Below, one piece after another: positions 2,090 to 25,018 of a stretch of 40,270 nucleotides of DNA. The notes under the pieces are model-generated. The model saw only the letters and a list, made by a program, of their open reading frames with translations, ran no database searches and had not been told where the DNA came from. The position numbers and the translations under genes are program-made. The stretch is from the UHGV virus genome UHGV-0384247. One strand, written 5' to 3'. The DNA comes from a virus. Position 1 is the first letter of the stretch; each line of letters begins with the position of its first letter.

Positions 2090-2280
2090 TTCGGATGTAA
2101 AGTAGCGGCTGGTAGACGGCCCTTAAATGATTAAGCGCGCGATCGGCTTTGCATCTGATTGGTACCAATAGCAGGTATCCGCAGATCTGCAAAACAAACA
2201 AAAATAGATTCAGCAATCTATATTTAGTGTCAGTACCCGAGTGCGGATAGGGTAAAGGGTGTCAATAAAAGGCATCCTAC

Positions 2281-2353
2281 GGGTGTATAGCTCAATTGGT
2301 AGAGCAATCGGCTGTTAACCGATGTGTCGTAGGTTCGAGTCCTGCTATACCCG
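2281..2353 (+). tRNA. tRNA-Asn (anticodon GTT)
   Basis: 73 nt fold into a full cloverleaf: acceptor GGGTGTA/TATACCC, D arm GCTC-AATTGGTA-GAGC, anticodon stem ATCGG/CCGAT with loop CTGTTAA, T arm GTAGG-TTCGAGT-CCTGC, discriminator G; CCA is not encoded. Confidence 0.85.
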
Positions 2354-2357
2354 TTGT

Positions 2358-2456: not shown

Positions 2457-2514
2457 TAAATTCTTAGCATCCAGAGATGGGTGCTTTTATTATGCTTAAA
2501 AGGTGGTGAGTCCT

Positions 2515-3084
2515 ATGACAGAAAAACAGAAAATATTTGCAGATGAGTACTTGATTGATCTAAATGCCACACGGGCTTACCGCGCGGCGTATCCGAATTG
2601 CAAAAAAGATAGTTCGGCAGATGCAGCAGCGAGAAAATTACTCGGAAATACTCGGATTCAAACATATATCACAGAACGAATGGAAGAACGGCAGAAACGA
2701 ACGGAGATCACCCAGGACATGGTGCTACAGGAACTAGCTGCGATTGCTTTTTCCAAGGCTTCTGACTACGCGAAAGTAGTTGAGAAACAGGCTACAGCAG
2801 AAGTAGATGGAAATATTATTCCACTCGTAGGAGAGGACGGAGAACCGATTCTGTATCGGACCGTAGAATTGGAACTTACAGATAACCTTACGGAGGAACA
2901 GCAGCGAGCCCTCGGAACGATTAAAAAGGGGCGCGATGGATTGGAACAGAAGCCCTGCGACAAGGTAAAGGCGCTTGAGCTTCTCGGCAGACATTTAGGT
3001 ATGTGGAATGACAAGCTGGATGTAGCAGGAGATATGGACATGAAGATTGTAGTAGACTATGGTGATGAGGATGAAGGAAGTTAA
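2515..3084 (+). CDS. terS: terminase small subunit (Terminase_2/P27-like)
   Basis: N-terminal KQKIFADEYLIDLNATRAYRAAYP is the signature of this TerS family; it sits immediately upstream of the large terminase; ATG at 2515 has RBS AAGGTGG (the track ORF begins at an alternative start, 2503). Confidence 0.8.
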   Translation: MTEKQKIFADEYLIDLNATRAYRAAYPNCKKDSSADAAARKLLGNTRIQTYITERMEERQKRTEITQDMVLQELAAIAFSKASDYAKVVEKQATAEVDGNIIPLVGEDGEPILYRTVELELTDNLTEEQQRALGTIKKGRDGLEQKPCDKVKALELLGRHLGMWNDKLDVAGDMDMKIVVDYGDEDEGS

Positions 3085-4327
3085 TGTTGGATTTAACAGA
3101 AATTTCAAAGAGTTTAATGAGTGCAAGAAACGATATCGACTGGCAAAAGGCTCTGCCGGATCCGGAAAGTCGGTAAACATTGCACAGAATTTTATCATCA
3201 AACTTGGTGATCCGAAGTACAAAGGTGCGAATCTTCTGTGCGTCCGGAAAGTAGACACAACAAACAAAGATAGTACTTATGCGGAGTTGAAGAGTGCAAT
3301 ATACAAGATATACGGGGATAAAGCGGGATTATTCTGGCAGATCAGAAGCAATCCAATGGAGCTGATCTCTAAAGTAACTGGAAATAAAGTGATTTTTCGA
3401 GGAATGAAAGACGATGGACAGCGAGAAAAAGTAAAGTCCATCACATTCGATGTCGGAAAATTAACATGGATATGGATTGAAGAAGCAACGGAGCTATATG
3501 AAGCGGATGTCGATATTCTCGATGACCGACTCAGAGGCGACTTGTCATTCAATCCATTTTTGTATTATCAGATCACGTTCAGCTTCAATCCGGTGTCAGC
3601 AACGCACTGGTTAAAAGCAAAATATTTCGACATAAAAAGTGATGATGTATACACACACCAGTCTACATACCTGCAGAACCGGTTCATAGACGAAGCGTAT
3701 CACCGGCGCATGATGATGCGTAAAGAACGGGATCCTGATGGATATCGGATTTATGGACTCGGTGAATGGGGAGAAACTGGCGGTCTGATTCTTACAAATT
3801 ATGTGGTCGAGGAATTCAACACATCTTCTGATCGATTTGATTACATGGTAAATTCACAGGATTTTGGATTCAACCATGCGAACTGTATCGGGGAGATTGG
3901 ATTCAAGGATGGAGATATCTACTTATGCCGGGAATTGTATGTATTTGAAAAAGATACGTCCGAAATCATACAGCTGGCTGAGGGAAAATTCCAGAAGCGA
4001 ATTACCATGTATTGTGATTCTGCTGAGCCAGACAGGATTAAGATGTGGCAGAAAGCAGGATACAGAGCATGTCCGGTCAAGAAAGAGCCGAACAGTGTAA
4101 AAGCGCAGATTGATTACTTAAAGCAGCATACAATCCATATACATCCGTCTTGCGTAAATACGATTAAGGAGATCCAGCAATGGAAATGGCGAAAAGATGA
4201 GAAGACGAACACCTTCACAGATGAGCCAGTGAATTTCTTTGATGATGCAATGGCAATGCTCAGATATTCTATTGAGCAGGAGAGAAAAGGCAAAGTGAAG
4301 TTAAAGACCTTTAGAGGAGGAATATAA
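3059..4327 (+). CDS. terL: terminase large subunit, PBSX/Terminase_3 family
   Basis: 422 aa; Walker A motif KGSAGSGKS near the N-terminus; acidic nuclease-domain residues in the C-terminal half; overlaps the terS stop. Confidence 0.9.
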   Translation: MVMRMKEVNVGFNRNFKEFNECKKRYRLAKGSAGSGKSVNIAQNFIIKLGDPKYKGANLLCVRKVDTTNKDSTYAELKSAIYKIYGDKAGLFWQIRSNPMELISKVTGNKVIFRGMKDDGQREKVKSITFDVGKLTWIWIEEATELYEADVDILDDRLRGDLSFNPFLYYQITFSFNPVSATHWLKAKYFDIKSDDVYTHQSTYLQNRFIDEAYHRRMMMRKERDPDGYRIYGLGEWGETGGLILTNYVVEEFNTSSDRFDYMVNSQDFGFNHANCIGEIGFKDGDIYLCRELYVFEKDTSEIIQLAEGKFQKRITMYCDSAEPDRIKMWQKAGYRACPVKKEPNSVKAQIDYLKQHTIHIHPSCVNTIKEIQQWKWRKDEKTNTFTDEPVNFFDDAMAMLRYSIEQERKGKVKLKTFRGGI

Positions 4328-4328
4328 A

Positions 4329-5687
4329 ATGAATGGGAAAAGACCATACAAACTGCCGGAACCGCTTTTATGTTCCGCCGACAAAGAAATCAATATGACA
4401 TTAGTAGATGAGTATATTCGCAAGCACGAAGAACGAATGCCAAGGTACAGATACCTTGAGAATCTATACAAAGGATTTCACGATGTATTCCGTCTTCCGG
4501 AAAAGGAGTCATGGAAGCCGGATAACCGACTGGCGGTGAATTTCCCAAGGTATATCACAGAGACGTTTTTGGGATATGCTTATGGGATTCCGGTTAAAAA
4601 ATCGCATCCGGACGAAAAAATAAAAGATGCGATCCTTGAATTTGACCGGGATAATGATATTTCTGACCAGGAATACGAACTGGTGAAGAAATGTTGCATC
4701 TACGGACATGCATTTGAGTATTTCTATCAAGACGAAGAAGCAAAGACAAAGACAGTAGTCTGCAATCCAAAAGAACTGTTTGTTGTCTACGATGATACCG
4801 TAAAGAGCCGCGCTCTATTTGCTGTCAGATATGGAAAAAAGGACGATAATGTTACAAGGTATGGTGAGATACTTACAAGGACAGAAATAATCCCATTCGA
4901 TGGAGAAAAGATGCAGGAGAGTATACCGAATCCTTACGGGCGTATTAACTGCGTGGAATACGTGTTGAACGATGAGAGAATCGGTCTGTATGAAGAAGTT
5001 GCCGGCATGGTAGAAACATACAACCGAGTGATCGGAGAAAAGGCGAATGATGTAGATTCTTTCGCAGAAGCGTATCTTGCAGTGCTGGGCGCCGAACTGG
5101 ACGAGGAAGGCGTTTATAAAATTCGCGACAACCGGATTATAAACCTTTATGGTACAGACAATGCAAAAGATATTATCGTGCAGTTTCTTGGCAAACCTAC
5201 GGCAGACGGAACACAGGAAAATCTTTTGAATCGGCTCGAGGATTTGATTTATCAGACAAGTATGGTAGCGAATATCTCAGACGAATCGTTTGGAAATGCC
5301 TCCGGAACTTCTCTCGCATACAAATTACAGTCCATGAGCAATCTTGCACTAACATTTGACCGTAAAGTTGAAAAGTCCATGAGGAAACGATATAAGCTGT
5401 TTTGCTCCCTTGCAACGAATGTGTCAGATCGGGACGCATGGAAAGATATTGATTTTACAATGAGCAGAAATATCCCGAAGAATCTCCTTGAAGAAGCGCA
5501 GACAGCACAGGCGCTTGAAAGCATCGTGTCCAAGGAAACGCAGCTGCAGGTCCTCTCGATCGTTAAGGATGTTTCAGAGGAGATAGATCGAATGGAGAAA
5601 GAGGAAGAAAAGAAGCAGCAAACAATCGTAGAGAAGCGGATGTTCGGAGGTGCGGCAGATGAGCAGCAGGACGTACTGGAAGAATAG
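4329..5687 (+). CDS. portal protein (SPP1 gp6-like)
   Basis: 452 aa directly after terL; size and position are typical; acidic, coiled C-terminus. Confidence 0.8.
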   Translation: MNGKRPYKLPEPLLCSADKEINMTLVDEYIRKHEERMPRYRYLENLYKGFHDVFRLPEKESWKPDNRLAVNFPRYITETFLGYAYGIPVKKSHPDEKIKDAILEFDRDNDISDQEYELVKKCCIYGHAFEYFYQDEEAKTKTVVCNPKELFVVYDDTVKSRALFAVRYGKKDDNVTRYGEILTRTEIIPFDGEKMQESIPNPYGRINCVEYVLNDERIGLYEEVAGMVETYNRVIGEKANDVDSFAEAYLAVLGAELDEEGVYKIRDNRIINLYGTDNAKDIIVQFLGKPTADGTQENLLNRLEDLIYQTSMVANISDESFGNASGTSLAYKLQSMSNLALTFDRKVEKSMRKRYKLFCSLATNVSDRDAWKDIDFTMSRNIPKNLLEEAQTAQALESIVSKETQLQVLSIVKDVSEEIDRMEKEEEKKQQTIVEKRMFGGAADEQQDVLEE

Positions 5688-6939
5688 AGAGGAAGAACAG
5701 CGGAAGAAGAATATCAAGGACGAAGCTGAATACGCGAAAGAGATTGAGAAGATCTATGCGAACATGATGGATGAAATCCAGAAAGAGATCAATGGATTTT
5801 ACACGCGATATGCAAAAGCAGAGGGAATCACAATTGCAGAAGCGAAGAAGCGAGTATCCAAAATGGACATTGATGCGTACAGCCGGAAGGCGGAGCAGTA
5901 TGTAAAGGATAAGGATTTTTCGAAGGAAGCCAATGAGGAAATGAGACTCTATAACGCAGCTATGAAGATTAACCGGCTTGAAATGCTGAAAGCAAATATC
6001 GGAATGCATCTTGTCGGTGGATTTGATGAGCTTCAGAAGTATTTTGACCAGATCCTGACGGAGAAAACGCTGGAAGAATTTGAAAGGCAGGCTGGAATTC
6101 TTGGCAAATCCATTCAGAACAATGCGAAGATGGCACATGCAATTGCAAATGCTTCATTCCACAATGCAAAATATTCGGACCGTATTTGGATGTATCAGGA
6201 TATGCTTAAAGCCGAATTATCGAAACTCTTACAAACAGGTCTGATACAGGGAAAGAATCCAAGAGTATTGGCAAAACATCTTACCAAACTGTTTGGAGTA
6301 AGCCGGGAAAATGCAGAGCGACTGATGATAACGGAACTGTCAAGGGTGCAGGCAGAAGCGCAGAAACAGTCTTATATCCGCAATGGATTTGATGAGTATG
6401 AGTTTATCGCGGAGCCGACAGCCTGCCAGATCTGCAGGGCTTTAGACGGAAAACATTTCAAGGTATCGAAAATGATGCCCGGAGAAAATGCACATCCAAT
6501 GCATCCACGCTGCCGGTGCAGTACAGCGGCATATACGGATGATAAAGAGTATCATGAGTGGCTGGACGGGTATTCTGAACATGGGATGAACTTTGAAACT
6601 TGGAAGAAGAGGGTTGAAAAGAAAACGGATTCTGGTATAATAAAGGCAGATAGAACAGTCAGCGGACATTCTGGTCCTCCTAAAATGGCAGAGGCGGGAA
6701 TGGTAATAGATCACATTGGAAAAGATGGAAAAGTAGATGTAAGAGCTTTTTACGGAGAGTCAAAATTAAAATATAAAGATATCCATACAACTGCGCATGG
6801 GAATCCCAAGCAGCATCCTTATGGAGAACATGGGGAACACGTACATGATTATACATGGGGAGATGATGGTAGACTGAAGAATAAGACAACTCGCGAATTA
6901 AGCAAAGAGGAAAGAAAGGAGAATGGCGATATATTATGA
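5659..6939 (+). CDS. minor head protein, MuF/SPP1 gp7 family, with a C-terminal extension of about 130 aa
   Basis: MuF-type Cys/His cluster CQICRAL...HPMHPRCRCS at residues ~260-292; follows the portal; ATG at 5659 with RBS GGAGGTG. Confidence 0.8.
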   Translation: MSSRTYWKNREEEQRKKNIKDEAEYAKEIEKIYANMMDEIQKEINGFYTRYAKAEGITIAEAKKRVSKMDIDAYSRKAEQYVKDKDFSKEANEEMRLYNAAMKINRLEMLKANIGMHLVGGFDELQKYFDQILTEKTLEEFERQAGILGKSIQNNAKMAHAIANASFHNAKYSDRIWMYQDMLKAELSKLLQTGLIQGKNPRVLAKHLTKLFGVSRENAERLMITELSRVQAEAQKQSYIRNGFDEYEFIAEPTACQICRALDGKHFKVSKMMPGENAHPMHPRCRCSTAAYTDDKEYHEWLDGYSEHGMNFETWKKRVEKKTDSGIIKADRTVSGHSGPPKMAEAGMVIDHIGKDGKVDVRAFYGESKLKYKDIHTTAHGNPKQHPYGEHGEHVHDYTWGDDGRLKNKTTRELSKEERKENGDIL

Positions 6940-7175
6940 ATAAAGATGAATTAAGACAAATTTTATCTGAGTGTTGCAATGATATTTCTTTCTTTTACAA
7001 AGGATTGGCATCGGGAGTGACAGTTGAAGTCAGAGATTACATTCCAACGTATCAAGCGTGGCATGGTGATGATACGAAAGAGTATGATAATGTAGATGAG
7101 GTTATGAATGATAAATTTTATAGCGGAAAATCATTAAACGATCTAGTAAAAGAAGTAGAAATTGATGCAATGTAA
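6936..7175 (+). CDS. small hypothetical protein (79 aa) coupled to the MuF gene
   Basis: start overlaps the MuF stop (ATGA); followed by a strong terminator. Confidence 0.45.
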   Translation: MNKDELRQILSECCNDISFFYKGLASGVTVEVRDYIPTYQAWHGDDTKEYDNVDEVMNDKFYSGKSLNDLVKEVEIDAM

Positions 7176-7231: not shown

Positions 7232-7549
7232 GTGAATGATATGAGCATACCAGAGAAAGTAAAAGTTTTATATAAAGAATATACAGTAGAAGAACAACAG
7301 AATCTACATGATGAAGAAGGCGATTTGTATGGGCTGATACAGTATCTCCCAGAGAAAATCGTCCTGAATGCAGATGCGTCAGAAGAACAGAAAAAATCGA
7401 CTTTAGTACATGAATTGTTGCATGCACTTGATGAAATGTACAGTATTGAACTGGAAGAGAAGCAGGTTGAGAAACTTGGAAATGCGTTGTATATGCTACA
7501 TTGCGATAATCCACAATTGTTTCACGCCGAAGGGGGCGATAACGATTGA
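7232..7549 (+). CDS. small protein with a zincin-like HExxH motif (VHELLHALDE)
   Basis: 105 aa; RBS AAGGAAGGAAG; the HELLH motif was read directly; family not recognised. Confidence 0.5.
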   Translation: MNDMSIPEKVKVLYKEYTVEEQQNLHDEEGDLYGLIQYLPEKIVLNADASEEQKKSTLVHELLHALDEMYSIELEEKQVEKLGNALYMLHCDNPQLFHAEGGDND

Positions 7550-7833
7550 TTGAGGTAAGAATTCGACCAGAGCGAATCGAAATCTCTGGACACGCCGGGT
7601 ACGCAGAACCTGGAAAAGACATTGTTTGTGCTGGCGTTACGGCGCTTACGCAGACGCTGATCCAGTCGATTGATGACTTAACGGATGATGAAATAGAATA
7701 CAGAATATCTCCCGGAAAGGCTGAGATAGAATACAGGAATCTGTCAGAGAAATCAAAAACTCTGGTGGATTCCTTTTTCGTTGGCATTCGCTTGATTGCC
7801 GATGAGTTTCCGGATTATGTAGCAATTATGTAA
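7546..7833 (+). CDS. prp: Prp-like cysteine protease (ribosomal-processing protease family, DUF464)
   Basis: 95 aa; begins MIEVRI and carries GHAGYAEPGKDIVCAGVTAL, matching the Prp catalytic His/Cys signature; TTG start overlaps the upstream stop. Confidence 0.7.
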   Translation: MIEVRIRPERIEISGHAGYAEPGKDIVCAGVTALTQTLIQSIDDLTDDEIEYRISPGKAEIEYRNLSEKSKTLVDSFFVGIRLIADEFPDYVAIM

Positions 7834-7916
7834 TTCGCGCCCAAGTCTTGAAGGCGTAAAAAGCTAGGGGAAAGGACCATGAAGAATGTCATTAAACTTT
7901 TAGGAGGTAAAGAAAA

Positions 7917-8492
7917 ATGAAGAGCAGGATGTTTAGAATGCTGCAGTTATTTGCAGAAGAAACCGTAGATCACACAGCAGAACCTGATGCGGTGAAAGAT
8001 AGTGTTAATCCGGAAAACACATCTGATGATAGCGGGGAAGAAAAAAAGTACACAGACAAGGATGTGGATGCGATTGTAAACAAAAGATTCGCAAAATGGA
8101 AAACTGAGCAGGAACAGGCGGTAAAGAGTGCTAAGGAAGAGGCAGAAAAGCTGGCAAAAATGAATGCTGAGCAGAAACAGAATTACGAGATCGAGAAGTT
8201 GCAAAAAGAGAATGAAAAACTGAAGCAGGAGGCTGCAAAGGTTGAGCTTAGCAGAAGCGCCACAGGCATTCTTGCAGAAAAAGGAATTGAAGCAACGCAG
8301 GATGTTCTTGATTTTGTTGTAGGGAATGACGCTGATGATACGAATGCAAAAATTGATAAGCTTGTAAAAATCGTGGAATCCCAGCTTAAGAAAGCCGAGA
8401 TCGCCAGAGCAACCGGAACTACACCAAAAACCATGACGAACTCAGGAAGCCAGTTGTCTGAATTTGAAAAGAGACTTGCAAAGTATAAATAA
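7917..8492 (+). CDS. scaffolding protein
   Basis: 191 aa, Lys/Glu-rich coiled coil, immediately upstream of the capsid gene; N-terminal MLQLFA motif. Confidence 0.65.
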   Translation: MKSRMFRMLQLFAEETVDHTAEPDAVKDSVNPENTSDDSGEEKKYTDKDVDAIVNKRFAKWKTEQEQAVKSAKEEAEKLAKMNAEQKQNYEIEKLQKENEKLKQEAAKVELSRSATGILAEKGIEATQDVLDFVVGNDADDTNAKIDKLVKIVESQLKKAEIARATGTTPKTMTNSGSQLSEFEKRLAKYK

Positions 8493-8505
8493 GGAGAATG
8501 TGAAG

Positions 8506-9426
8506 ATGAAGAACAGAGAATTTATGATGTTACAGTTATTTGCGGCAGGAGACAACAATGATATGCCGATAAGGAGCTACCAGCTTGAGTTTAAAAGTCT
8601 TTTGCAGGCAGTATTTAAAAAGATGTCCTATTTCGCGGATTTTTTCGGCGGCGAAATTGAGGCACTTGATGGTGTTAGAGAGAATGAAACGGCCTTTTAT
8701 GTAAAGACATCGGATATCCCGGTTGTAGTGGGAACTGGGTACGATAAGACAGCTACGAAAGCGTTCGGAACAGGAACAGGAAGCTCTAGCCGTTTCGGTG
8801 AGAGAAAAGAGATTATCTACGCAAACACACCGGTTAATTATTCTTGGGAATGGAATTTCCATGAAGGAATTGACCGACACACCGTAAATAATGATTTTGA
8901 CGTTGCGGTAGCAGATCGCTTGGAACTGCAGGCGAGGGCTAAGACAAAGAAGTTTAACAAGCAGCACGGAAAATTTATTTCCACATCTGCAGGAAAAACT
9001 TTAAGTGTTACTGATTATACGGCAGACAATGTATTAAAGCTGTTTAATGAGCTGTCTAAGTATTTTAATAACATCGAAGCAGTTGGAACGAAAAAAATTA
9101 AGGTTTGTTCCGATCTGTACAATGCCGTCGTGGATCATCCTTTGAATACGACTGCTAAAAACTCCACTGTAAACATTGATGGCAATGAGGTTGTGAAGTT
9201 CAAGGGATTCCTTGTAGAGGAGATTCCGGATGAGCTCTTCAAGTCCAAAGAATGTGCCTATGCATATATTGCCGGAGTTGCAAAAGCATTTACTGGAATT
9301 AACACAGCGAGAACGATCGAATCCGAGGATTTTGACGGTGTAGCTTTGCAGGGAGCTGGTAAGGCTGGAGAATTTATTCCGAATGACAACAAGAAAGCTG
9401 TAGTTAAAGTGTCGGTGGGGGAATAG
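8506..9426 (+). CDS. major capsid protein (HK97 fold, 80alpha/SPP1-like)
   Basis: about 306 aa directly after the scaffold; start ATG at 8506 with AAGGAGA 8 nt upstream (the track ORF begins at 8464 inside the scaffold gene); N-terminal MMLQLFA propeptide-like motif. Confidence 0.7.
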   Translation: MKNREFMMLQLFAAGDNNDMPIRSYQLEFKSLLQAVFKKMSYFADFFGGEIEALDGVRENETAFYVKTSDIPVVVGTGYDKTATKAFGTGTGSSSRFGERKEIIYANTPVNYSWEWNFHEGIDRHTVNNDFDVAVADRLELQARAKTKKFNKQHGKFISTSAGKTLSVTDYTADNVLKLFNELSKYFNNIEAVGTKKIKVCSDLYNAVVDHPLNTTAKNSTVNIDGNEVVKFKGFLVEEIPDELFKSKECAYAYIAGVAKAFTGINTARTIESEDFDGVALQGAGKAGEFIPNDNKKAVVKVSVGE

Positions 9427-9497: not shown

Positions 9498-9516
9498 TAT
9501 AATGGAGGTATTAAAA

Positions 9517-9837
9517 ATGGCATATACACCAACTACATGGAATAATGATGACGTTATTACAGCGGAGAAACTGAATAAGTTAGAGCAGGGCGTGAAGAAT
9601 GAGCAGATTGGACCAGCAGGACCAGCAGGACCAAAAGGCGAAAAAGGCGATCCGGGTGCGCAGGGACCTGCTGGAACAAGTTACACTCTTCCAGCAGCAA
9701 ACAAGACAACGCTTGGCGGTGTGAAACAGATGTCTTTGATTGCAGATTTGTCCACAGAAACAGGGGCTGATTTAAAAAATAAAATCAATGCAATTCTTGC
9801 TGAAATGAAAAAACAGGGTATCATGGCGAATTCGTAA
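9517..9837 (+). CDS. small collagen-like (Gly-X-Y) protein, possible head decoration or fibre
   Basis: GPAGPAGPKGEKGDPGAQGPAG tract; ATG at 9517 with GGAGG and an 8-nt spacer. Confidence 0.5.
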   Translation: MAYTPTTWNNDDVITAEKLNKLEQGVKNEQIGPAGPAGPKGEKGDPGAQGPAGTSYTLPAANKTTLGGVKQMSLIADLSTETGADLKNKINAILAEMKKQGIMANS

Positions 9838-11266: not shown

Positions 11267-11794
11267 ATGTTTGAGACAGGATTACAGTTATTTGCAGAGG
11301 CGGTATCTGGCAAGAAAATTGTATATTTGTACCGCCTTGCAGAAAAAGCGAAACAGGAAGCAGCAAAGAATCTTGCGTTTACAACGGAGAATGGAAGAAC
11401 CAAGAGTAAGGATGCAGATTCTACTGCAACGAAAGACGGTACAATCCGTACACCAGGAGCTGCGGAGACAGAAATTACAGCCACTGCTGTTTTGGCAAAA
11501 GGCGATAAATTGATCACAGAACTTGAGGACGCTATGGATTCCGATAAACTTCTTGAAATTTGGGAAGTAAACCTTGAAGAAGCAGCGGAAGCGGGTCCGA
11601 ATAAATTTAAGGGAATGTATTTCCAAGGATATCTCACAGAAGTTGAGGTCACGTCTTCTGCAGATGAGAATGTGGAAGTATCCCTTACTTTTGGCATCAA
11701 CGGATCAGGTAAACGCGGAGATGTAACCGTGACAACGCAGCAGCAGGAAATCGCGAATTACGTGTTTAAGGACAGCGTGAAAGAGGGGGAATAA
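11267..11794 (+). CDS. major tail (tube) protein
   Basis: 175 aa; RBS GAGAGGAGA; position between the tail-completion gene and the chaperone pair; threonine-rich. Confidence 0.65.
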   Translation: MFETGLQLFAEAVSGKKIVYLYRLAEKAKQEAAKNLAFTTENGRTKSKDADSTATKDGTIRTPGAAETEITATAVLAKGDKLITELEDAMDSDKLLEIWEVNLEEAAEAGPNKFKGMYFQGYLTEVEVTSSADENVEVSLTFGINGSGKRGDVTVTTQQQEIANYVFKDSVKEGE

Positions 11795-12669: not shown

Positions 12670-15600
12670 ATGGCAGAAAGTTATTCAGTAAAGGCAATAT
12701 TATCTGCACAGGATAGAGGATTTACGTCTGCTTTCAAATCTGCAATGGGTACCGTAAGCAATTTAAAAAGCACGCTCACGAGTGGAATAGGGTTCGGGAT
12801 CATGGCCGGAATTGGGCAAAAGGCATTTGGTGCTGTCACATCCAGTATTGGTGGTATGGTGTCAGAGTTAAATTCTTCCAGCGCTGCATGGAAAACATTT
12901 AATGGAAACATGTCGATGGTTGGCAAAGGCGCTGACGAGATTGCATCTGTAAAAAAGGAATTGCAAGAGTTTGCAGAAGATACTATTTACAGCGCATCTG
13001 ATATGGCGAGTACTTATGCTCAGCTGAGTGCAGTAGGTATTAAAAGCACGAACAAGCTTGTAAAGGGATTCGGAGGGCTTGCGGCGGCAGCTGAGAATCC
13101 AAAACAGGCAATGAAAACTTTAAGCCAGCAAGCTACACAGATGGCAGCGAAACCAACGGTTGCATGGGCAGACTTTAAACTTATGATCGAACAGACTCCG
13201 GCTGGTATATCGGCAGTCGCAAAAGAAATGGGCATGACTACCACGGAGCTGGTGCAGAATGTGCAGGACGGAAAAATCGCGACAGAAGATTTCTTTGATG
13301 CTATCGCAAAAGTCGGCACAAATGACGCATTTACGAAGCTTGCTACAGAGTATAAGACTGTAGATCAGGCAATGGATGGTCTGACCGAAACAGTAAGTAA
13401 TAAGCTGGCACCGTCATTTGATGTTTTATCCGGTCGAGCGATTAAATCTTTGGACGGGATAATCAATAAAATTGGAGATCTTGATGGAGATGCAATCGCA
13501 GGGAAATTAACTGGATTTCTCGATAAAGCAAGTGGATACTGGAATGTTTTAAAGACAGAGGTTTCCGAAATAAAGGCTGCTTTTGGAGATGCCTTTTCTG
13601 CAATCGGAGAAGATTTGGGGAAGATTACTGGTGCATTTGGCTCCACGGAAAGCATCAGTTCTTTTGCTGGTGTAATGGACTCTGCGAGTGGGGCATTGCA
13701 AACATTTGCCGGATTCCTGAAAGAACATTCGGAGACCATCGCGAAAGTGATATCAAAACTCCCACAGCTTTTCGTTGCATATAAAGGCTTTAAGATTGCG
13801 AAAAGTGTTGCTCCATTTGTAGGCGCATTCACGAGTGCGATTGCCGGCCTTGCCGGAGCTGGAATAAGTAAAATCGCTGGGAAATTATTCGGAATTTCCA
13901 AAGGACAGAGAGCAGTTGAGGTATCGAGCAAGACGAGCGTAAAAGGAGTAACCTCTTTAAAAGAAGGCTTTAATTCACTTCAAAAAAGTGCTGGTATTGC
14001 CTTAATAGTAAGCGCCTTAGCTGGTTTTGCACTTGCGGTAAAACCGCTGGCAGAATTAGGAACAACCGCTGTTGCTCCGCTTGCTGCATTCGGAGTTGTT
14101 GTCGGTGGTTTAGCAATCATACTTGGAACTATGGGAAAGAAACTGCAGGAAAGTGCAGTTGGCATTGCGGTGTTTGCTGGTGCGGTATCAGCAATGGCAT
14201 TATCCATGACACCTCTTGCTAAAACTGGTACAGACGGAGCTGTTGCAATGGGAACATTCGGAGTTGTTATCGGTGGTTTGGTTGCAGTATTTGCGGTATT
14301 TGGGACGGCTCTGACAGCTGCTATACCAGCGATGCTTGCTTTCGGCGCAACCATCCTTATGGTTGGTGCTGGAATGTCTCTGGCAACGCCTTTTGTTGAA
14401 GCACTAGGAAGCGTAATTCAAATACTTGGAGATGTTGTTGTTCAAGTAATAGGGGTAATCACTGGTGCTATCGTAGCTATCTTCCCAGTATTCGGAAATT
14501 TTGTGTCAACTGTTTCTGATTCAGTTAGCCAAATAGTATCAGTTGTTGGCAATACACTTGTAAATATTTTTAAAACTGCCGGGGACATCATTACAGGTGT
14601 TATTGATTCATTAGGGGATGGGTTTAAAAAAGTCACAGACGGGATTTCGAAAGTTATAGATTCAATTAGTGGTGGATTTTCCAGTGTTTTGGATTCTGTT
14701 GCTGGAATCATTGACTCAATCGGAAACTCTGCCAAAAATGCTGGCAAAGGATTCGAGAGCGTAGCTGACGGTATCAACACGATTGCTAGTCTATCTATTG
14801 TAGATATAGCAAAGGCACTCGGATCGGTAGCTATTGGTCTCGGAGAAATTTCTGCAAAAGGAAAAGGAATTGGTACCGTTGCAGATGGACTTAACGGAGT
14901 TATTGGAGCAATTACAATTGCATCGGTGCAGATTTCAATGTTTTCAGGAACTCTTACGCAACTAAATTCAACGGCCGTTCAAATTCCTACTAGCATGGCT
15001 ATGATTAGCGGAGCATTAGCAAGTTTTTCAATTCCTGTTATAGATACTGGCAGTATCATGGCAGCATTTGCTTCTATTAGTGCAGGTGCGGAAGCGCTGG
15101 TAGCACAACTGGATTCTTCGGCCGCGAAAGCCGGGGCGCAATTTTCAAAAGCGCTTACTAACGGTATGAATTCAGCTGCTAATTCCGTGCAGCGTGGTGT
15201 TTCTAAAATTACGTCATCTGCTAATAAACTTATTTCAATGCTGACGAATATTGCAACGCAGGCAATGAGCCAATTTAATTCCGCTCTATCCTCCGGTGCA
15301 AGTAGGGCAACTTCTACGGCGAGATCAATGTCAACGTCCATTTTGTCAGCACTTAACAGCACTTCATCTGGTGCTTATTCTTGCGGCGTGTATATTGGAC
15401 AGGGACTTGCAAAAGGCATGGCATCTACACTTGGATATATCAGATCAGTTGCAGAACAAATGGCTGCGGCTGCAGATGCGGCAGTCAGGGCAAAAGCAAA
15501 AATCCACAGTCCGTCAAGAGTATTTGCTGGGCTTGGTGTCTATGTAGGAGAGGGATTTGCGCTTGGAATTGAGTCGATGTCCAGAAAGGTTACAGAAGCT

Positions 15601-15843
15601 ACGCAGAGTATTGTTGAGATCCCAACATTATCCACAGATATGAGGATGCGAGCTTCCGGTGCCGGAGATTCTGAACTTTCCGGTGATTATTCCTATAACA
15701 GAAATGTTACATACACAATCGTTGTGCCGGTTGAATATAACGGCAGAGAAGCAGCGCGTGTTACGGCGGAATTTACGCAGAAAGATCTGGAAAGACGTGA
15801 GAGCATGAAGATGAGACTGAAAGGAGAAAGAAGCCATGTATGA
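12670..15843 (+). CDS. tape measure protein
   Basis: 1057 aa; Ala/Gly/Ser-rich with multiple hydrophobic segments; position. Confidence 0.9.
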   Translation: MAESYSVKAILSAQDRGFTSAFKSAMGTVSNLKSTLTSGIGFGIMAGIGQKAFGAVTSSIGGMVSELNSSSAAWKTFNGNMSMVGKGADEIASVKKELQEFAEDTIYSASDMASTYAQLSAVGIKSTNKLVKGFGGLAAAAENPKQAMKTLSQQATQMAAKPTVAWADFKLMIEQTPAGISAVAKEMGMTTTELVQNVQDGKIATEDFFDAIAKVGTNDAFTKLATEYKTVDQAMDGLTETVSNKLAPSFDVLSGRAIKSLDGIINKIGDLDGDAIAGKLTGFLDKASGYWNVLKTEVSEIKAAFGDAFSAIGEDLGKITGAFGSTESISSFAGVMDSASGALQTFAGFLKEHSETIAKVISKLPQLFVAYKGFKIAKSVAPFVGAFTSAIAGLAGAGISKIAGKLFGISKGQRAVEVSSKTSVKGVTSLKEGFNSLQKSAGIALIVSALAGFALAVKPLAELGTTAVAPLAAFGVVVGGLAIILGTMGKKLQESAVGIAVFAGAVSAMALSMTPLAKTGTDGAVAMGTFGVVIGGLVAVFAVFGTALTAAIPAMLAFGATILMVGAGMSLATPFVEALGSVIQILGDVVVQVIGVITGAIVAIFPVFGNFVSTVSDSVSQIVSVVGNTLVNIFKTAGDIITGVIDSLGDGFKKVTDGISKVIDSISGGFSSVLDSVAGIIDSIGNSAKNAGKGFESVADGINTIASLSIVDIAKALGSVAIGLGEISAKGKGIGTVADGLNGVIGAITIASVQISMFSGTLTQLNSTAVQIPTSMAMISGALASFSIPVIDTGSIMAAFASISAGAEALVAQLDSSAAKAGAQFSKALTNGMNSAANSVQRGVSKITSSANKLISMLTNIATQAMSQFNSALSSGASRATSTARSMSTSILSALNSTSSGAYSCGVYIGQGLAKGMASTLGYIRSVAEQMAAAADAAVRAKAKIHSPSRVFAGLGVYVGEGFALGIESMSRKVTEATQSIVEIPTLSTDMRMRASGAGDSELSGDYSYNRNVTYTIVVPVEYNGREAARVTAEFTQKDLERRESMKMRLKGERSHV

Positions 15844-22552: not shown

Positions 22553-22642
22553 ATGAGCGAACAGAACGAATTTGGCAGAGTATCCGCAGAGGAACTGGAA
22601 AAAGCATTTGAAACAGAAGAGCAGGAGGAAGAGAAAGAATGA
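22553..22642 (+). CDS. 29-aa acidic micro-ORF (MSEQNEFGRVSAEELEKAFETEEQEEEKE) coupled to the endolysin start
   Basis: RBS GGAGGTG; its stop overlaps the endolysin ATG (ATGA). Confidence 0.3.
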   Translation: MSEQNEFGRVSAEELEKAFETEEQEEEKE

Positions 22643-23442
22643 AAATTGGCTTAAGGGGAGGGCATTCCCCAAATTGTAAAGGTGCAATAGGTCTGATCGA
22701 TGAGCAGGCAGAAGTGCGGAAGATCTACAATGAGCTTGCACCAATGTTGCAGGCTGTCGGTCATACTGTGGTTGATTGTAATTCCAATGCATCCAATGTG
22801 TCCAGCGAGTTATCTAACGGAACAAATAAGGCGAATAGTGCGGGGTGCGATATCTATGTCACCTTGCACATGAACGCCGCAGGAACGGAATCAGCAGGAG
22901 GCACAGAGGTGTGGTTATATGATGCATCTAACCAGACAATGAACACGATCGCAAGCGATATCTGTAATAATTTTGCGGGTAAAGGATTTACTAACCGGGG
23001 TGTAAAGTACAGTTCGGGATACCATGATCTGAATGCATCTAATATGCCCGGTATGATTGTGGAGACATTATTTTGCACCGGCACAGATGATGTAGCACGG
23101 TATCGTAGTTTAAGCACAAAAGGAATTGCTGAGCTGATTGCAAAGGCGATCGACAGCAAAGCATCAACAGGAAGTGGACAGGGAAACAAACAGAATACAG
23201 GAGATTGGGAAGGAGAAGAGACTATGCAGTGTATGTTTACGGTAGAGGGAAAAGGATGTGTATATTGGTATCATGATGATAAGATTACGGCTTTGGGACA
23301 TCCGGACGAAATGAAGATTCTGATGGATATTTACAAAGCGAACAATGGAAGAGATATGCCATCTTATCATTGGACAAAGAAAGCGCCGTGGCACGCAAGA
23401 TTACTTGCGGTGCTGAACAGAAAACCATCTACATCTATCTAA
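22639..23442 (+). CDS. endolysin, N-acetylmuramoyl-L-alanine amidase (Amidase_3, CD27L-like) with a C-terminal domain
   Basis: MKIGLRGGHS...LAP.L...GH.V...TLHMNA...GTEVW pattern matches Amidase_3 phage lysins. Confidence 0.85.
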   Translation: MKIGLRGGHSPNCKGAIGLIDEQAEVRKIYNELAPMLQAVGHTVVDCNSNASNVSSELSNGTNKANSAGCDIYVTLHMNAAGTESAGGTEVWLYDASNQTMNTIASDICNNFAGKGFTNRGVKYSSGYHDLNASNMPGMIVETLFCTGTDDVARYRSLSTKGIAELIAKAIDSKASTGSGQGNKQNTGDWEGEETMQCMFTVEGKGCVYWYHDDKITALGHPDEMKILMDIYKANNGRDMPSYHWTKKAPWHARLLAVLNRKPSTSI

Positions 23443-23599: not shown

Positions 23600-25018
23600 T
23601 CACGATATGTAAAGATGGAAGATCAGTTTTCCGTTTTTCTTGTCATAAACGATATCTTCTACCAAACTTCTCATAAAAATCCCTTTGGTATCATAGTCTA
23701 TAGCATCATTTTTAATCACATCATATACAGTTTGCACGTTCTTGAGCACGTCAGATTTTGTTTTCGCGTCTTCATTATTCTTATTGAGATTTTCCAGTTG
23801 CATCAAAATATCTTCCCTGTCTTTTCGCAGACGCTCTTTGTTCCGTTTATATTCTTCCAAAGTATCTACTTCATTCTCATAAGCGAGACGGATCCGTTTC
23901 TCCCTGTTGGAAATTTTATCAAGTTCAGACAAGAGCGATTCACGTTCTGATATCTTCTCGCCGGTCTCAGCAGAGTGGTAGGAGTATTCAAAATCCATAC
24001 CGGAAAGAAGTTTTTCAAAATATTCTTCCAGTGCAGCGATCACTTTTTTCTCTGATATCGAACAGGATTCGGTATGTATTCCTTTACTGTACTTATAACA
24101 CTGAAAACCAGGTGAGTGCCTGTTTGCACCATTGTAGGCGAGAGAGGCCCCGCAGTATCCGCATTTTAAAATCCCTGATAACCAATGTTTACATGAGGAT
24201 ACATCACGGCGTTTCAGTGGCTTGTATGTAGTCTGTATCTTTTTCATGCGGGCTTCGAAGCGTTCTTTTGAGTAATGGACTTCATGTGTTCCCATGAATG
24301 TTATTCCATTCCACGCGACAAGACCATAATAGAATGGATTTTTCAAGATTCTTTCTACGCTACGGGATTCGAAAGGGTTCCCTCGTCTTGTGCGGACTCC
24401 CATATCGTTTAGCTTTCTTGTTATCTTTGTGGTATCTGAGTTGCGGTAATCAAATTCATCACAGATAAAATCCACGACCTTCATTTCATCCGGAACAATT
24501 TTATAAGGATCTCCGTTTCCAACAGCACGATACCCAAAAGGTGGGGACATCTGGTATCCTTTTTTTGTAGCCTTTTCTTTCATCCCTCTTAGGACTTCGC
24601 CAGAAAGCCGGATAGAGTAGTATTCATCCATCCATTCAATGATTCTCTCGATTAAAGAGCCGAATGGACCATCTATCAAAGGTTCTGACACACTCACAAC
24701 ATCAACGTTGCTTTGCTTCCGCAGCAGGGATTTGTATACGATAGATTCTTCTTGATTTCTTGCGAATCTGCTGAATTTCCAAACCAGAATCACATCAACT
24801 GGATGATCGGATGATTTTGCAAGCCCGATCATTTTCTGGAATTCTGGACGCTTGTCAGCTTTTCTACCGGATATTCCAAGCTCAAAGAAAACCTTCAAAA
24901 TGATAATATTGTTTTTGGCAGCATATTCCCGTAATAGTTTCTCTTGCGAATCCGGAGAAAGTTCTTCTTGCTTATCAGTGGATACACGGACGTAACCATA
25001 GGCATATCTTGCGCTCAT
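23600..25018 (-). CDS. large serine recombinase (integrase)
   Basis: 472 aa; N-terminal resolvase catalytic domain YGYVRVSTDKQ; recombinase domain; zinc-ribbon Cys pairs; coiled-coil C-terminus. Confidence 0.9.
   Translation of the reverse strand: MSARYAYGYVRVSTDKQEELSPDSQEKLLREYAAKNNIIILKVFFELGISGRKADKRPEFQKMIGLAKSSDHPVDVILVWKFSRFARNQEESIVYKSLLRKQSNVDVVSVSEPLIDGPFGSLIERIIEWMDEYYSIRLSGEVLRGMKEKATKKGYQMSPPFGYRAVGNGDPYKIVPDEMKVVDFICDEFDYRNSDTTKITRKLNDMGVRTRRGNPFESRSVERILKNPFYYGLVAWNGITFMGTHEVHYSKERFEARMKKIQTTYKPLKRRDVSSCKHWLSGILKCGYCGASLAYNGANRHSPGFQCYKYSKGIHTESCSISEKKVIAALEEYFEKLLSGMDFEYSYHSAETGEKISERESLLSELDKISNREKRIRLAYENEVDTLEEYKRNKERLRKDREDILMQLENLNKNNEDAKTKSDVLKNVQTVYDVIKNDAIDYDTKGIFMRSLVEDIVYDKKNGKLIFHLYIS

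What the first reader, a model, noticed from the sequence alone, without database searches (positions are those of the whole stretch)
7546..8560. Phage-encoded Prp protease with L27-like MLQLFA cleavage motifs on both scaffold and capsid N-termini
ORF 7546-7833 carries the Prp catalytic signature GHAGY...DIVCAGV. In Firmicutes, Prp removes the N-terminal extension of ribosomal protein L27 after a conserved FA motif, and in Staphylococcus phage 80alpha the host Prp trims the scaffold and capsid. Here the scaffold begins MKSRMFRMLQLFA-EETV and the capsid, from ATG 8506, begins MKNREFMMLQLFA-AGDN. Both therefore start with the same MLQLFA motif, consistent with Prp substrates. The phage appears to bring its own Prp rather than relying on the host enzyme. 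The shared motif also supports 8506, not 8464, as the true capsid start.
Basis: partly seen in the sequence, partly recalled or inferred. Interest (0 to 1): 0.6.

Follow-up and report, generated by a model that had tools for sequence, protein, structure and literature searches.

The report
Phage-encoded Prp protease with tagged substrates
A temperate gut phage carries its own copy of the small bacterial protease Prp, which normally trims ribosomal protein L27. Three of its building-block proteins (scaffold, capsid and tail tube) start with the same L27-like cleavable tag, so the phage probably trims its own parts rather than relying only on the host enzyme.

Summary
It needs two corrections.

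**What is confirmed**
- ORF 7546-7833 (TTG start) is a true Prp-family cysteine protease: Pfam PF04327 at 78 bits against a cutoff of 27.
- Its catalytic residues His16, Asp25 and Cys28 are conserved.
- The AlphaFold model matches only solved Prp structures, with TM-scores of 0.74-0.90.
- Scaffold and capsid both carry N-terminal ...MLQLFA, and ATG 8506 is the capsid start.

**Corrections**
- Prp cuts between F and A, so the mature capsid should begin AAGDNN, not AGDNN.
The major tail protein (11267-11794) begins MFETGLQLF|AEAVSGKK.
- QLFA occurs only three times in the six-frame translation, all at these N-termini.

**Comparative support**
- Among 70 distinct Prp-carrying loci, 61 have two or three tagged genes in the 5 kb downstream. 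Upstream, 2 of 285 ORFs are tagged.
- Unrelated capsid families carry the same tag.
- Within one capsid family every Prp+ phage has the tag. About 15 Prp-less relatives start at the predicted mature end. Six Prp-less ones carry Bacillus-type tags, as in phage 80alpha.

**Standing**
- Cleavage itself is inferred, not shown.
- This is a phage-borne variant of the known 80alpha/host-Prp system. It is common in gut Firmicutes prophages, and I found no paper describing it.

The parts
7546..7833 (+). prp: 95-aa phage-encoded Prp-family cysteine protease (MEROPS C108). TTG start; predicted catalytic His16 and Cys28, plus Asp25.
   Evidence: PF04327 E=5.6e-22 over the full-length profile. phrog_4478 'peptidase'. 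PDB sequence hits 2g0i at 2e-9 and 4peo/7kld at 5e-5, with GHA..DIVCAG aligned. AF2 model pLDDT 87; Foldseek top 14 hits are all Prp structures. H16, D25 and C28 are invariant in 30 homologues.
7530..7536 (+). Shine-Dalgarno (AAGGGGG) 9 nt upstream of the TTG start. The TTG overlaps the TGA of the upstream ORF (ATTGA).
   Evidence: Read directly from the sequence. A non-ATG start preceded by a good Shine-Dalgarno is conserved: TTG in 71, CTG in 3 and ATG in 9 of 83 loci.
7917..8492 (+). Head scaffolding protein (191 aa). Predicted 12-residue propeptide MKSRMFRMLQLF (7917-7952); predicted mature N-terminus AEETVDH (Ala codon 7953-7955).
   Evidence: PF14265 DUF4355 E=5e-31; phrog_172. Tag located. 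The tag is conserved on diverged scaffolds.
8506..9426 (+). Major capsid protein (306 aa from ATG 8506). Predicted 12-residue propeptide MKNREFMMLQLF (8506-8541); predicted mature N-terminus AAGDNNDMP (Ala codon 8542-8544).
   Evidence: phrog_840 E=2.9e-118, with the match starting at residue 16. Prp-less orthologues start M(P)T.NNNQAARSYQ, within about one residue of the predicted mature end.
11267..11794 (+). Major tail (tube) protein (175 aa). Predicted 9-residue propeptide MFETGLQLF (11267-11293); predicted mature N-terminus AEAVSGKK (Ala codon 11294-11296).
   Evidence: PF06199 Phage_tail_2 E=2e-15; phrog_238 E=1e-51, with the match starting at residue 11. Tag located. The tag is conserved in relatives, and the L050/L055 orthologues start MSVIKGKRIIYLYR, exactly at the predicted P1' position.

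Best explanation
The window is a roughly 40-kb temperate siphovirus genome of a gut Lachnospiraceae-type host. Its head module runs TerS, TerL, SPP1-type portal, Mu-F minor head protein, two small ORFs, Prp, scaffold, capsid.

Proposed mechanism:
- The phage makes its own Prp from a weak TTG start codon.
- Prp recognises a short N-terminal tag, consensus (G/N/D)-L-Q-(L/V/M)-F|A, on the three most abundant virion-assembly proteins: scaffold, major capsid protein and tail tube protein.
- It cuts between Phe and Ala. That removes 12, 12 and 9 residues and leaves mature ends AEETV..., AAGDNN... and AEAVSGKK...
- The tag copies the N-terminal extension of the host's ribosomal protein L27, which is the natural Prp substrate.
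- By carrying the enzyme, the phage can process on the order of 100,000 subunits per burst (my own estimate). It would not then depend on, or saturate, the host Prp that ribosome assembly needs.

Shown here: family membership, catalytic residues, fold, presence of the tags, and their tight evolutionary coupling to the gene.

Inferred: that cleavage happens, that the phage enzyme rather than the host enzyme does it, when it happens, and why it is useful.
For: Prp identity
- PF04327 at 78.2 bits against a 27-bit cutoff.
- Alignment to S. mutans, S. aureus and S. pneumoniae Prp structures with the catalytic block conserved. H16, D25 and C28 correspond to SaPrp H22, D31 and C34, the residues whose mutation kills activity (PMC9405229).
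- The AF2 model has beta-beta-alpha-beta-beta-alpha-beta topology, pLDDT 87. Foldseek against the PDB returns Prp structures as the top 14 hits at TM-scores of 0.74-0.90, and the next hit has E=0.05.

Tags
- There are three QLFA occurrences in 40 kb, all at structural-protein N-termini.
- They match the published motif MLxx(D/N)LQ(F/L)F'A and Lachnospiraceae L27 (MLKMNLQLF|AHKKG).

Coupling of gene and tags
- 416 IMG/VR contigs encode a relative of this Prp.
- In 70 distinct loci with 5 kb on both sides, the number of tagged ORFs per locus downstream was 3 in 42 loci, 2 in 19, 1 in 3 and 0 in 6. Upstream, 2 of 285 ORFs were tagged.
- Non-homologous capsid families carry the tag: 401-aa type ...KLGLQVF|AAP; 418-aa type ...NLQLF|DTD.
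- The pattern recurs in prophages of Blautia, Faecalicatena, Mediterraneibacter, Dubosiella and Enterococcus avium.

Natural experiment within one capsid family
- Every Prp+ locus with a readable capsid start has a tagged capsid (in L144 the capsid start is interrupted by a stop codon).
- About 15 Prp-less contigs have untagged capsids that start at the predicted mature end.
- L151 lacks Prp and lacks all three tags.

Precedent
- In phage 80alpha, host Prp cuts the scaffold and capsid at F|A, and the motif has been noted on the phi13 major tail protein (PMC5744158).
Against: - There is no biochemical evidence for this enzyme.
- The hosts almost certainly have their own Prp and a long L27, so the phage copy looks redundant. 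Host Prp could do some or all of the cutting.
- Six Prp-less relatives keep tags (LNLQFF|A and similar), which shows a phage Prp is not required for a tagged phage.
- In 80alpha, cleavage of the capsid and scaffold is dispensable for viability, so the benefit is unclear.
- A few Prp homologues sit in contexts with no tagged genes: L239, L244 and L255.
- The loci come from similarity searches and are phylogenetically related, so the counts are not independent events.
Confidence: 0.8

Rival explanations
1. The tags are cut by the host's Prp, exactly as in 80alpha. The phage-borne Prp serves another purpose. For example, it could top up L27 maturation so that ribosome assembly keeps going while phage proteins compete for the host enzyme, or while host gene expression is shut down.
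For: Lachnospiraceae L27 carries the same NLQLF|A or NIQFF|A extension, so a host Prp of matching specificity should exist. Prp-less relatives with tags exist. 80alpha works this way.
Against: The gene sits inside the head module directly upstream of its putative substrates in essentially all loci. Presence of the tag tracks presence of the gene within one capsid family. In Prp+ phages P1' and P2 drift away from the L27 consensus (F|T, F|S, F|D, F|G; QVF, QAF, QRF, QMY). This suggests co-evolution with a private enzyme. The two roles are not mutually exclusive.
Confidence: 0.12
2. The N-terminal LQLF motif is an uncleaved assembly or chaperone-binding signal, and the Prp homologue is catalytically inactive or irrelevant to it.
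For: In 80alpha the intact scaffold N-terminus is needed for assembly but its cleavage is not, so the peptide has a function apart from being removed.
Against: The catalytic His, Cys and Asp are invariant across homologues. Natural tag-less orthologues of the capsid and tail tube start precisely at the predicted P1' residue, as expected if the mature protein lacks the tag. Family profiles for the capsid and tail begin after the tag.
Confidence: 0.05
3. The shared motif is a chance or compositional coincidence, or an artefact of mis-called start codons.
For: The motifs are short, and the capsid ORF has an alternative upstream TTG at 8464.
Against: There are 3 of 3 occurrences at N-termini in 40 kb. 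The DNA pattern gives 3 matches against 0 expected. In related loci 167 of 631 downstream ORFs are tagged against 2 of 285 upstream. A stop codon closes the upstream frame in many relatives.
Confidence: 0.01

Closest known systems
Host Prp (MEROPS C108; YsxB/DUF464; S. aureus Prp, PDB 4PEO/7KLD) processing ribosomal protein L27
   Same: Same protein family, same catalytic His/Cys(/Asp) with the same spacing, and same fold. The recognition motif is the same type...LQ(F/L)F|A.
   Different: The gene lies in a phage head-morphogenesis module, not between rplU and rpmA. Compare the true host operons L248 and L249, where Prp sits directly upstream of L27. It is shorter (95 aa against 106). It shares only about 27% identity with my from-memory SaPrp sequence and 18-20% with SaPrp chains in the Foldseek structural alignment. 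Its presumed substrates are virion proteins with acidic P2' residues (A-E/A-A/A-D) rather than A-(S/H)-K-K.
Staphylococcus phage 80alpha scaffold (gp46) and capsid (gp47) cleavage by host Prp; the motif is also noted on the phi13 major tail protein
   Same: L27-like N-terminal tags on the scaffold and capsid, cut at F|A with 13-14 residues removed. The tag is also seen on a tail protein (PMC5744158; PMC9405229).
   Different: 80alpha encodes no protease and depends on the host enzyme. Here the phage carries the protease itself and tags three proteins in one genome. Six Prp-less relatives of this phage's capsid family (L161-L163, L169-L171) look like the 80alpha arrangement.
Streptococcus phage Cp-1 orf13 protease (the only other member of MEROPS clan CR)
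   Same: A small (104 aa) phage-encoded cysteine protease that trims the N-terminus of the major capsid protein. It is weakly Prp-like over the full profile length.
   Different: Cp-1 orf13 scores only 18.5 bits on PF04327, below the 27-bit cutoff, against 78 bits here. Cp-1 is a phi29-like podovirus. Its capsid N-terminus has no LQxF tag in its first 97 residues, and about 40 residues are removed.
Classical phage prohead proteases (HK97 gp4/S78, ClpP-like S14, U35)
   Same: The same job in outline: a phage-encoded enzyme trims capsid-assembly proteins, and its gene lies between the portal and the capsid genes.
   Different: Unrelated fold and chemistry. No such protease domain was found between the portal and capsid genes here. 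Those enzymes remove long delta domains or scaffolds from inside the procapsid, are not known to process tail tube proteins, and do not copy a host ribosomal-protein signal.

Membership tests
Prp cysteine protease (Pfam PF04327 / MEROPS C108) | Full-length match to the family profile above the curated threshold | tested here: met
   78.2 bits against a cutoff of 27, E=5.6e-22, profile positions 1-89 of 90.
Prp cysteine protease (Pfam PF04327 / MEROPS C108) | Catalytic His-Cys dyad 12 residues apart, plus the essential Asp three residues before the Cys (SaPrp H22, C34, D31) | tested here: met
   H16, C28 and D25 align to the SaPrp residues in the phmmer alignment to 4peo. They are invariant in 30 homologues. 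The roles of these residues are taken from PMC9405229.
Prp cysteine protease (Pfam PF04327 / MEROPS C108) | Prp fold (beta-beta-alpha-beta-beta-alpha-beta) | tested here: met
   AF2 model pLDDT 87.1, pTM 0.77. The Foldseek top 14 PDB hits are all Prp-family structures (2g0j, 7kld, 7jvs, 2idl, 1s12, 4peo) at TM-scores of 0.74-0.90.
Prp cysteine protease (Pfam PF04327 / MEROPS C108) | Site-specific cleavage at ...LQ(F/L)F|A | not testable with these tools
   Needs an enzyme assay or N-terminal sequencing. Only the presence of matching motifs was shown.
Housekeeping ribosomal Prp (rplU-prp-rpmA operon) | Gene located between the L21 and L27 genes, with L27 as its substrate | tested here: not met
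   The gene sits between the Mu-F minor head protein and the scaffold in a phage genome. True host operons, for contrast, are L248 and L249. It is therefore a phage paralogue, not the host housekeeping gene.
80alpha-type Prp-dependent virion protein processing | L27-like N-terminal tag on the scaffold and major capsid protein | tested here: met
   MKSRMFRMLQLF|A and MKNREFMMLQLF|A, plus the tail tube MFETGLQLF|A.
80alpha-type Prp-dependent virion protein processing | No phage protease; dependence on host Prp | tested here: not met
   The phage encodes its own Prp. This is the respect in which it is a variant.
Cp-1-type phage protease (MEROPS clan CR, non-C108) | Sequence family of Cp-1 orf13, and its cleavage about 40 residues into the capsid protein at a non-LQxF site | tested here: not met
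   Cp-1 orf13 is below threshold on PF04327 (18.5 bits). tblastn with the window Prp did not find Cp-1. The first 97 residues of the Cp-1 capsid lack the tag.

The most novel reading that the evidence does not exclude
A portable 'tag plus protease' maturation cassette. The phage-borne Prp has become a private enzyme that co-evolves with its own substrate set, shown by the drift at P1' and P2: F|T, F|S, F|D, F|G, QVF, QAF, QRF and QMY.

The set includes the tail tube, which would make N-terminal propeptide removal a checkpoint for tail as well as head assembly.

Because it still recognises L27-type sites, the phage enzyme might also act on host L27. It could then take over or rescue ribosome maturation during infection, much as the mobile-element protease Rrp does in pneumococcus.
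Probability: 0.2. Interest if true: 0.7.

Novelty: new variant of a known kind. Interest (0 to 1): 0.45.

Why it matters
Prp was discovered through phage 80alpha, which borrows the host enzyme. The purpose of the L27-like tag on phage proteins is still called unclear by the groups that study it.

This phage lineage, common in human gut Lachnospiraceae and also present in Enterococcus and Erysipelotrichaceae prophages, offers natural genotypes in all three states:
- tag plus its own protease
- tag without a protease
- neither

That makes the role of the tag directly testable, and it extends the substrate list to the tail tube.

There are also practical consequences:
- **Annotation.** The gene uses TTG or CTG starts and is missed in at least one deposited phage genome (Dorea phage DO134P1).
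- **Mature termini.** Mature N-termini of the capsid and tail proteins should be modelled from Ala after LQLF.
- **Antibiotic targeting.** Prp is being pursued as an antibiotic target, and prophage-borne Prp copies are a possible source of bypass, like the Rrp protease reported in 2026.

Tried and rejected
1. **The upstream HExxH ORF as a Prp partner.** ORF 7232-7549 is M78/ImmA-like and its stop overlaps the Prp start. Rejected as a partner: it is present in only 9 of 83 Prp loci.
2. **TTG 8464 as the capsid start.** Rejected. The frame is closed by a stop codon in many relatives, and the Shine-Dalgarno fits ATG 8506.
3. **Chance occurrence of the motif.** Rejected.
4. **A classical prohead protease in the module.** None found. 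The Mu-F protein does hit a PHROG labelled 'head maturation protease' (phrog_595), but more weakly than 'minor head protein' phrog_115, and its Pfam domain is Phage_Mu_F.
5. **Literature on phage-encoded Prp.** Seven searches and six papers opened (two further paper ids were not held). I found 80alpha, the Prp reviews and the 2026 Rrp preprint, but no description of a siphovirus-encoded Prp with tagged substrates. Wall et al. 2015 and 2017 were not in the library, so prior mention there cannot be excluded.
6. **Naming the host through the look-up of encoding contigs.** It returned only metagenome records. The host is assigned at family level and from the Dorea phage hit.
7. **Cp-1 as the same family.** It is only a distant, sub-threshold relative with a different cleavage site.
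8. **The S. aureus Prp row in alignment A1.** Claims about residue correspondence rest on the PDB alignment instead.
Full report
**1. The observation**

- ORF 7546-7833 (+) encodes 95 aa beginning (M)IEVRIRPERIEISGHAGYAEPGKDIVCAGV.
- Its TTG start lies 9 nt after AAGGGGG and overlaps the TGA of the upstream ORF.
- The scaffold (7917-8492) begins MKSRMFRMLQLFAEETV.
- The capsid ORF read from ATG 8506 begins MKNREFMMLQLFAAGDN.

A six-frame scan of the whole window finds QLFA only three times. At DNA level the three tags share YTRCAGTTATTTGC, with 3 matches against 0 expected from shuffles.

**2. What the genes are**

Pfam and PHROGs results:

| Coordinates | Strand | Assignment |
|---|---|---|
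| 2503-3084 | + | TerS |
| 3059-4327 | + | TerL |
| 4329-5687 | + | SPP1-type portal |
| 5650-6939 | + | Mu-F minor head protein |
| 6936-7175 | + | 79-aa ORF |
| 7232-7549 | + | 105-aa HELLH (M78-like) ORF |
| 7546-7833 | + | Prp (PF04327, E=5.6e-22, 78.2 bits against cutoff 27; phrog_4478 'peptidase') |
| 7917-8492 | + | scaffold (DUF4355, phrog_172) |
| 8506-9426 | + | major capsid protein (phrog_840, E=2.9e-118, match from residue 16) |
| 9502-9837 | + | collagen-like head-fibre protein |
| 11267-11794 | + | major tail protein (Phage_tail_2; phrog_238, E=1e-51, match from residue 11) |
| 12670-15843 | + | tape measure protein |
| 22639-23442 | + | amidase endolysin |
| 23600-25018 | - | serine recombinase |

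The window is essentially a complete temperate siphovirus genome.

**3. Is the 95-aa protein really a Prp?**

Yes, by every test available.
- **Sequence.** phmmer against PDB sequences finds S. mutans SMU.848 (2g0i, E=2e-9), S. aureus Prp (4peo/7kld, E=5e-5) and S. pneumoniae 2idl. The block GHA-x7-G-x-DIVCAG is aligned in each.
- **Catalytic residues.** That alignment maps H16, D25 and C28 onto SaPrp H22, D31 and C34. Mutating those residues abolishes SaPrp activity (PMC9405229). They are invariant among 30 homologues.
- **Fold.** An AlphaFold2 model (pLDDT 87.1, pTM 0.77) has beta-beta-alpha-beta-beta-alpha-beta topology. Foldseek against the PDB returns only Prp-family structures in the top 14, at TM-scores of 0.74-0.90. 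The next hit has E=0.05.

**4. The cleavage site**

Published work places the Prp cut between F and A. For 80alpha and L27 the sites are ...NLQFF'ADQS...NLQHF'ASNN and MLKLNLQFF'ASKK, and the general motif is MLxx(D/N)LQ(F/L)F'A(S/H)KK.

Corrected predictions:

| Protein | Residues removed | Predicted mature N-terminus |
|---|---|---|
| Scaffold | 12 | AEETVDH |
| Capsid | 12 | AAGDNNDMP |
| Tail tube | 9 (the length of the S. aureus L27 extension shown) | AEAVSGKK |

**5. Comparative evidence**

*Annotated phages.* tblastn of the Prp against 50,697 phage records finds only five.
- One is a near-identical gut contig.
- Dorea phage DO134P1 has the gene, but it is not annotated. Only CTG or ATT is available as a start.
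- Acutalibacter phage Fontainebleau annotates it as 'peptidase'.
- In both named phages the scaffold, capsid and tail protein are tagged, even though their capsids belong to other families:
  - DO134P1: MANLQLF|AEGD, ...KLGLQVF|TAPD, ...MQGLQVF|SESN.
  - Fontainebleau...FNLQLF|DDGG...FFNLQLF|DTDA...IFDLQLF|DESR.

*Abundance.* The gene is far commoner than annotated phage records suggest.
- 1,663 clusters at 90% identity match it. Some carry the names 'MAG TPA: cysteine protease' or 'YsxB-like protein [Caudoviricetes sp.]'.
- 3,256 clusters at 50% identity match at E<=1e-3.
- 416 IMG/VR contigs encode a relative.
- One variant alone occurs in 398 assembly blocks.

*Tag counts around Prp.* In 70 distinct Prp loci with 5 kb on both sides:

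| Tagged ORFs in the 5 kb downstream | Loci |
|---|---|
| 3 | 42 |
| 2 | 19 |
| 1 | 3 |
| 0 | 6 |

Overall 167 of 631 downstream ORFs are tagged, against 2 of 285 upstream.

*Site composition.* From 104 unique sites: P5 is G, N or D. P4 is L in 101. P2 is L, then V, then M. P1 is F in 100 and Y in 4. P1' is A in 93 (S 4, T 3, D 2, G 1, C 1). P2' is E, A or D. Q at P3 and F or Y at P1 were imposed by the search pattern.

**6. A natural experiment within the window's capsid family**

Loci retrieved with the capsid as the query fall into three classes.
1. **Prp upstream and a tagged capsid.** This is every Prp+ locus with a readable capsid start. In L144 the start is interrupted by a stop codon. 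Variants include LQMF|A, LQMY|A and LQRF|A.
2. **No Prp within 4-6 kb upstream and an untagged capsid.** The capsid begins M(P)T.NNNQAARSYQ, which aligns within about one residue of the predicted mature end AAGDNNDMPIRSYQ. About 15 contigs are in this class. L151 was checked gene by gene: it has no Prp and no tag on the scaffold, capsid or tail.
3. **No Prp but a tag of Bacillus type.** KLNLQFF|A, RLDIQFF|A, LNLQYF|A, MQLQFF|A and LDIQFF|S; six contigs. This is the 80alpha arrangement. The annotated relatives of these capsids are Bacillus, Lactobacillus, Streptococcus and Lactococcus phages.

Similarly, in L050 and L055 the tail tube gene starts MSVIKGKRIIYLYR, exactly at the predicted P1' position.

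**7. Hosts and the L27 model**

- Species-representative genomes carrying relatives of this Prp in prophages are Faecalicatena contorta (71% identity), Mediterraneibacter, Blautia, Merdisoma, Diplocloster, Dubosiella, Enterococcus avium and E. raffinosus, and several Clostridia MAGs. Where the structural genes were present in the locus they are tagged.
- Two hits, L248 and L249, are genuine host operons. Prp sits directly upstream of L27, which begins MLKLNLQCF|ASKKG and MLKLDLQLF|ASKKG.
- Named Lachnospiraceae L27 proteins have the long N-terminus: MLKMNLQLF|AHKKG, MFQMNLQLF|AHKKG, MLNMNIQFF|AHKKG, and Hespellia MMKLNLQFF|AHKKG. My query contained LQLF, so the ranking is biased towards that variant.
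- The host family therefore has the L27 tag that the phage copies, and by implication its own Prp. The phage enzyme is nominally redundant.

**8. Mechanism and open points**

The best-supported reading is that the phage Prp removes the tags from the scaffold, capsid and tail tube at F|A.

Three reasons for carrying the gene are consistent with the data. None was tested.
- **Capacity.** By my own estimate, a burst needs roughly 100,000 cuts, on proteins that would otherwise compete with L27 for an essential host enzyme.
- **Independence from host Prp variants.** Published work stresses tight co-evolution between Prp and L27.
- **Freedom to drift.** Prp+ phages show non-L27 residues at P1' and P2.

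The conserved weak start codon (TTG in 71, CTG in 3 and ATG in 9 of 83 loci, each with a good Shine-Dalgarno) suggests deliberately low, catalytic-level expression.

What the tag does before removal is unknown. In 80alpha the intact scaffold N-terminus is required for assembly, while cleavage is dispensable.

**9. Comparison with what is known, and novelty**

- **Host Prp and L27:** same family and same motif. The window gene fails the operon-context criterion, so it is a phage paralogue.
- **80alpha:** same tags, but no phage protease.
- **Cp-1 orf13:** a phage-encoded clan-CR protease, but only 18.5 bits on PF04327, and its capsid has no LQxF tag in its first 97 residues.
- **The 2026 Rrp protease:** carried on a pneumococcal mobile element and cleaves L27, but it is an Ntn hydrolase, not a Prp.

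Public databases already auto-label these phage proteins as cysteine proteases. I found no paper describing phage-encoded Prp together with its tagged substrates. The two original Wall et al. papers were not available to check.

I file this as a new variant of a known kind, of moderate interest. It is a logical extension that specialists would not find shocking. It is backed here by unusually clean comparative evidence, adds the tail tube as a substrate, and offers a ready-made system for asking what the L27-like tag is for.

Noticed in passing
window 7232-7549 (+): A 105-aa ORF with an HELLH zinc-metallopeptidase motif (PF06114 M78/ImmA-like, E=4.8e-5; phrog_1233, function unknown). Its stop codon overlaps the Prp TTG start. 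It is present in only 9 of 83 Prp loci, so it is an accessory gene and not a Prp partner.
   Followed up: partly
window 9502-9837 (+): A 111-aa protein directly after the capsid gene. It has a short collagen-like stretch (GPAGPAGPKGEKGDPGAQGPAG) and a head-fibre C-terminal domain (PF11133, E=9e-10), so it is probably a head fibre or decoration protein.
   Followed up: partly
L001 (Dorea phage DO134P1, OP172779) 5962-6249: The Prp homologue (65-68% identical) is not annotated in the deposited genome. The frame offers only CTG or ATT as a start, after a good AAAGGAG Shine-Dalgarno. Across 83 loci the Prp start is TTG in 71, CTG in 3 and ATG in 9.
   Followed up: yes
L030 7293-9429 (also the other loci in the L028-L043 range whose scaffold starts about 2.3 kb downstream of Prp): A roughly 2.3-kb insertion of three ORFs (95, 524 and 95 aa) lies between Prp and the scaffold in a subgroup of close relatives. 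The 95-aa and 524-aa ORFs scanned against Pfam gave no hit; the last 95-aa ORF was not scanned.
   Followed up: partly
L050 and L055, tail protein genes (about 10375 and 9171): These phages have Prp and tagged scaffold and capsid proteins. Their tail tube protein starts MSVIKGKRIIYLYR, exactly at the predicted post-cleavage residue, so it is a naturally 'pre-cleaved' tail. L056 has LQLLA (F to L) in the tail tag.
   Followed up: partly
L161-L163, L169-L171 (IMG/VR prophage contigs): Capsid-family relatives with no Prp gene within 6 kb upstream but with Bacillus-type tags (KLNLQFF|A, RLDIQFF|A, LNLQYF|A, MQLQFF|A, LDIQFF|S). They presumably depend on host Prp, like 80alpha. Their nearest annotated relatives are Bacillus phages such as BCASJ1c and PBC1.
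   Followed up: partly
L258 (Streptococcus phage Cp-1, Z47794) 8805-9119: The Cp-1 maturation protease orf13 matches the Prp Pfam model along its full length but below threshold (18.5 bits against 27). Its capsid N-terminus has no LQxF tag.
   Followed up: yes
window 2280-2354 (+): A tRNA-Asn (GTT) gene lies just upstream of the small terminase gene. The Dorea phage carries a tRNA-Met in the equivalent position.
   Followed up: no
window 25210-26454 (-): A 414-aa protein with DUF4041 and T5orf172/MUG113 (GIY-YIG-like) domains, next to the serine recombinase (23600-25018). It may be a defence or nuclease accessory gene of the lysogeny module.
   Followed up: no
L239, L244, L255 (genome contigs): Prp homologues (31-59% identical) in contexts with no tagged structural genes downstream: a prophage remnant, a truncated 87-aa copy next to lysis genes, and a 113-aa copy in a non-phage context. 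Their substrates are unknown.
   Followed up: partly
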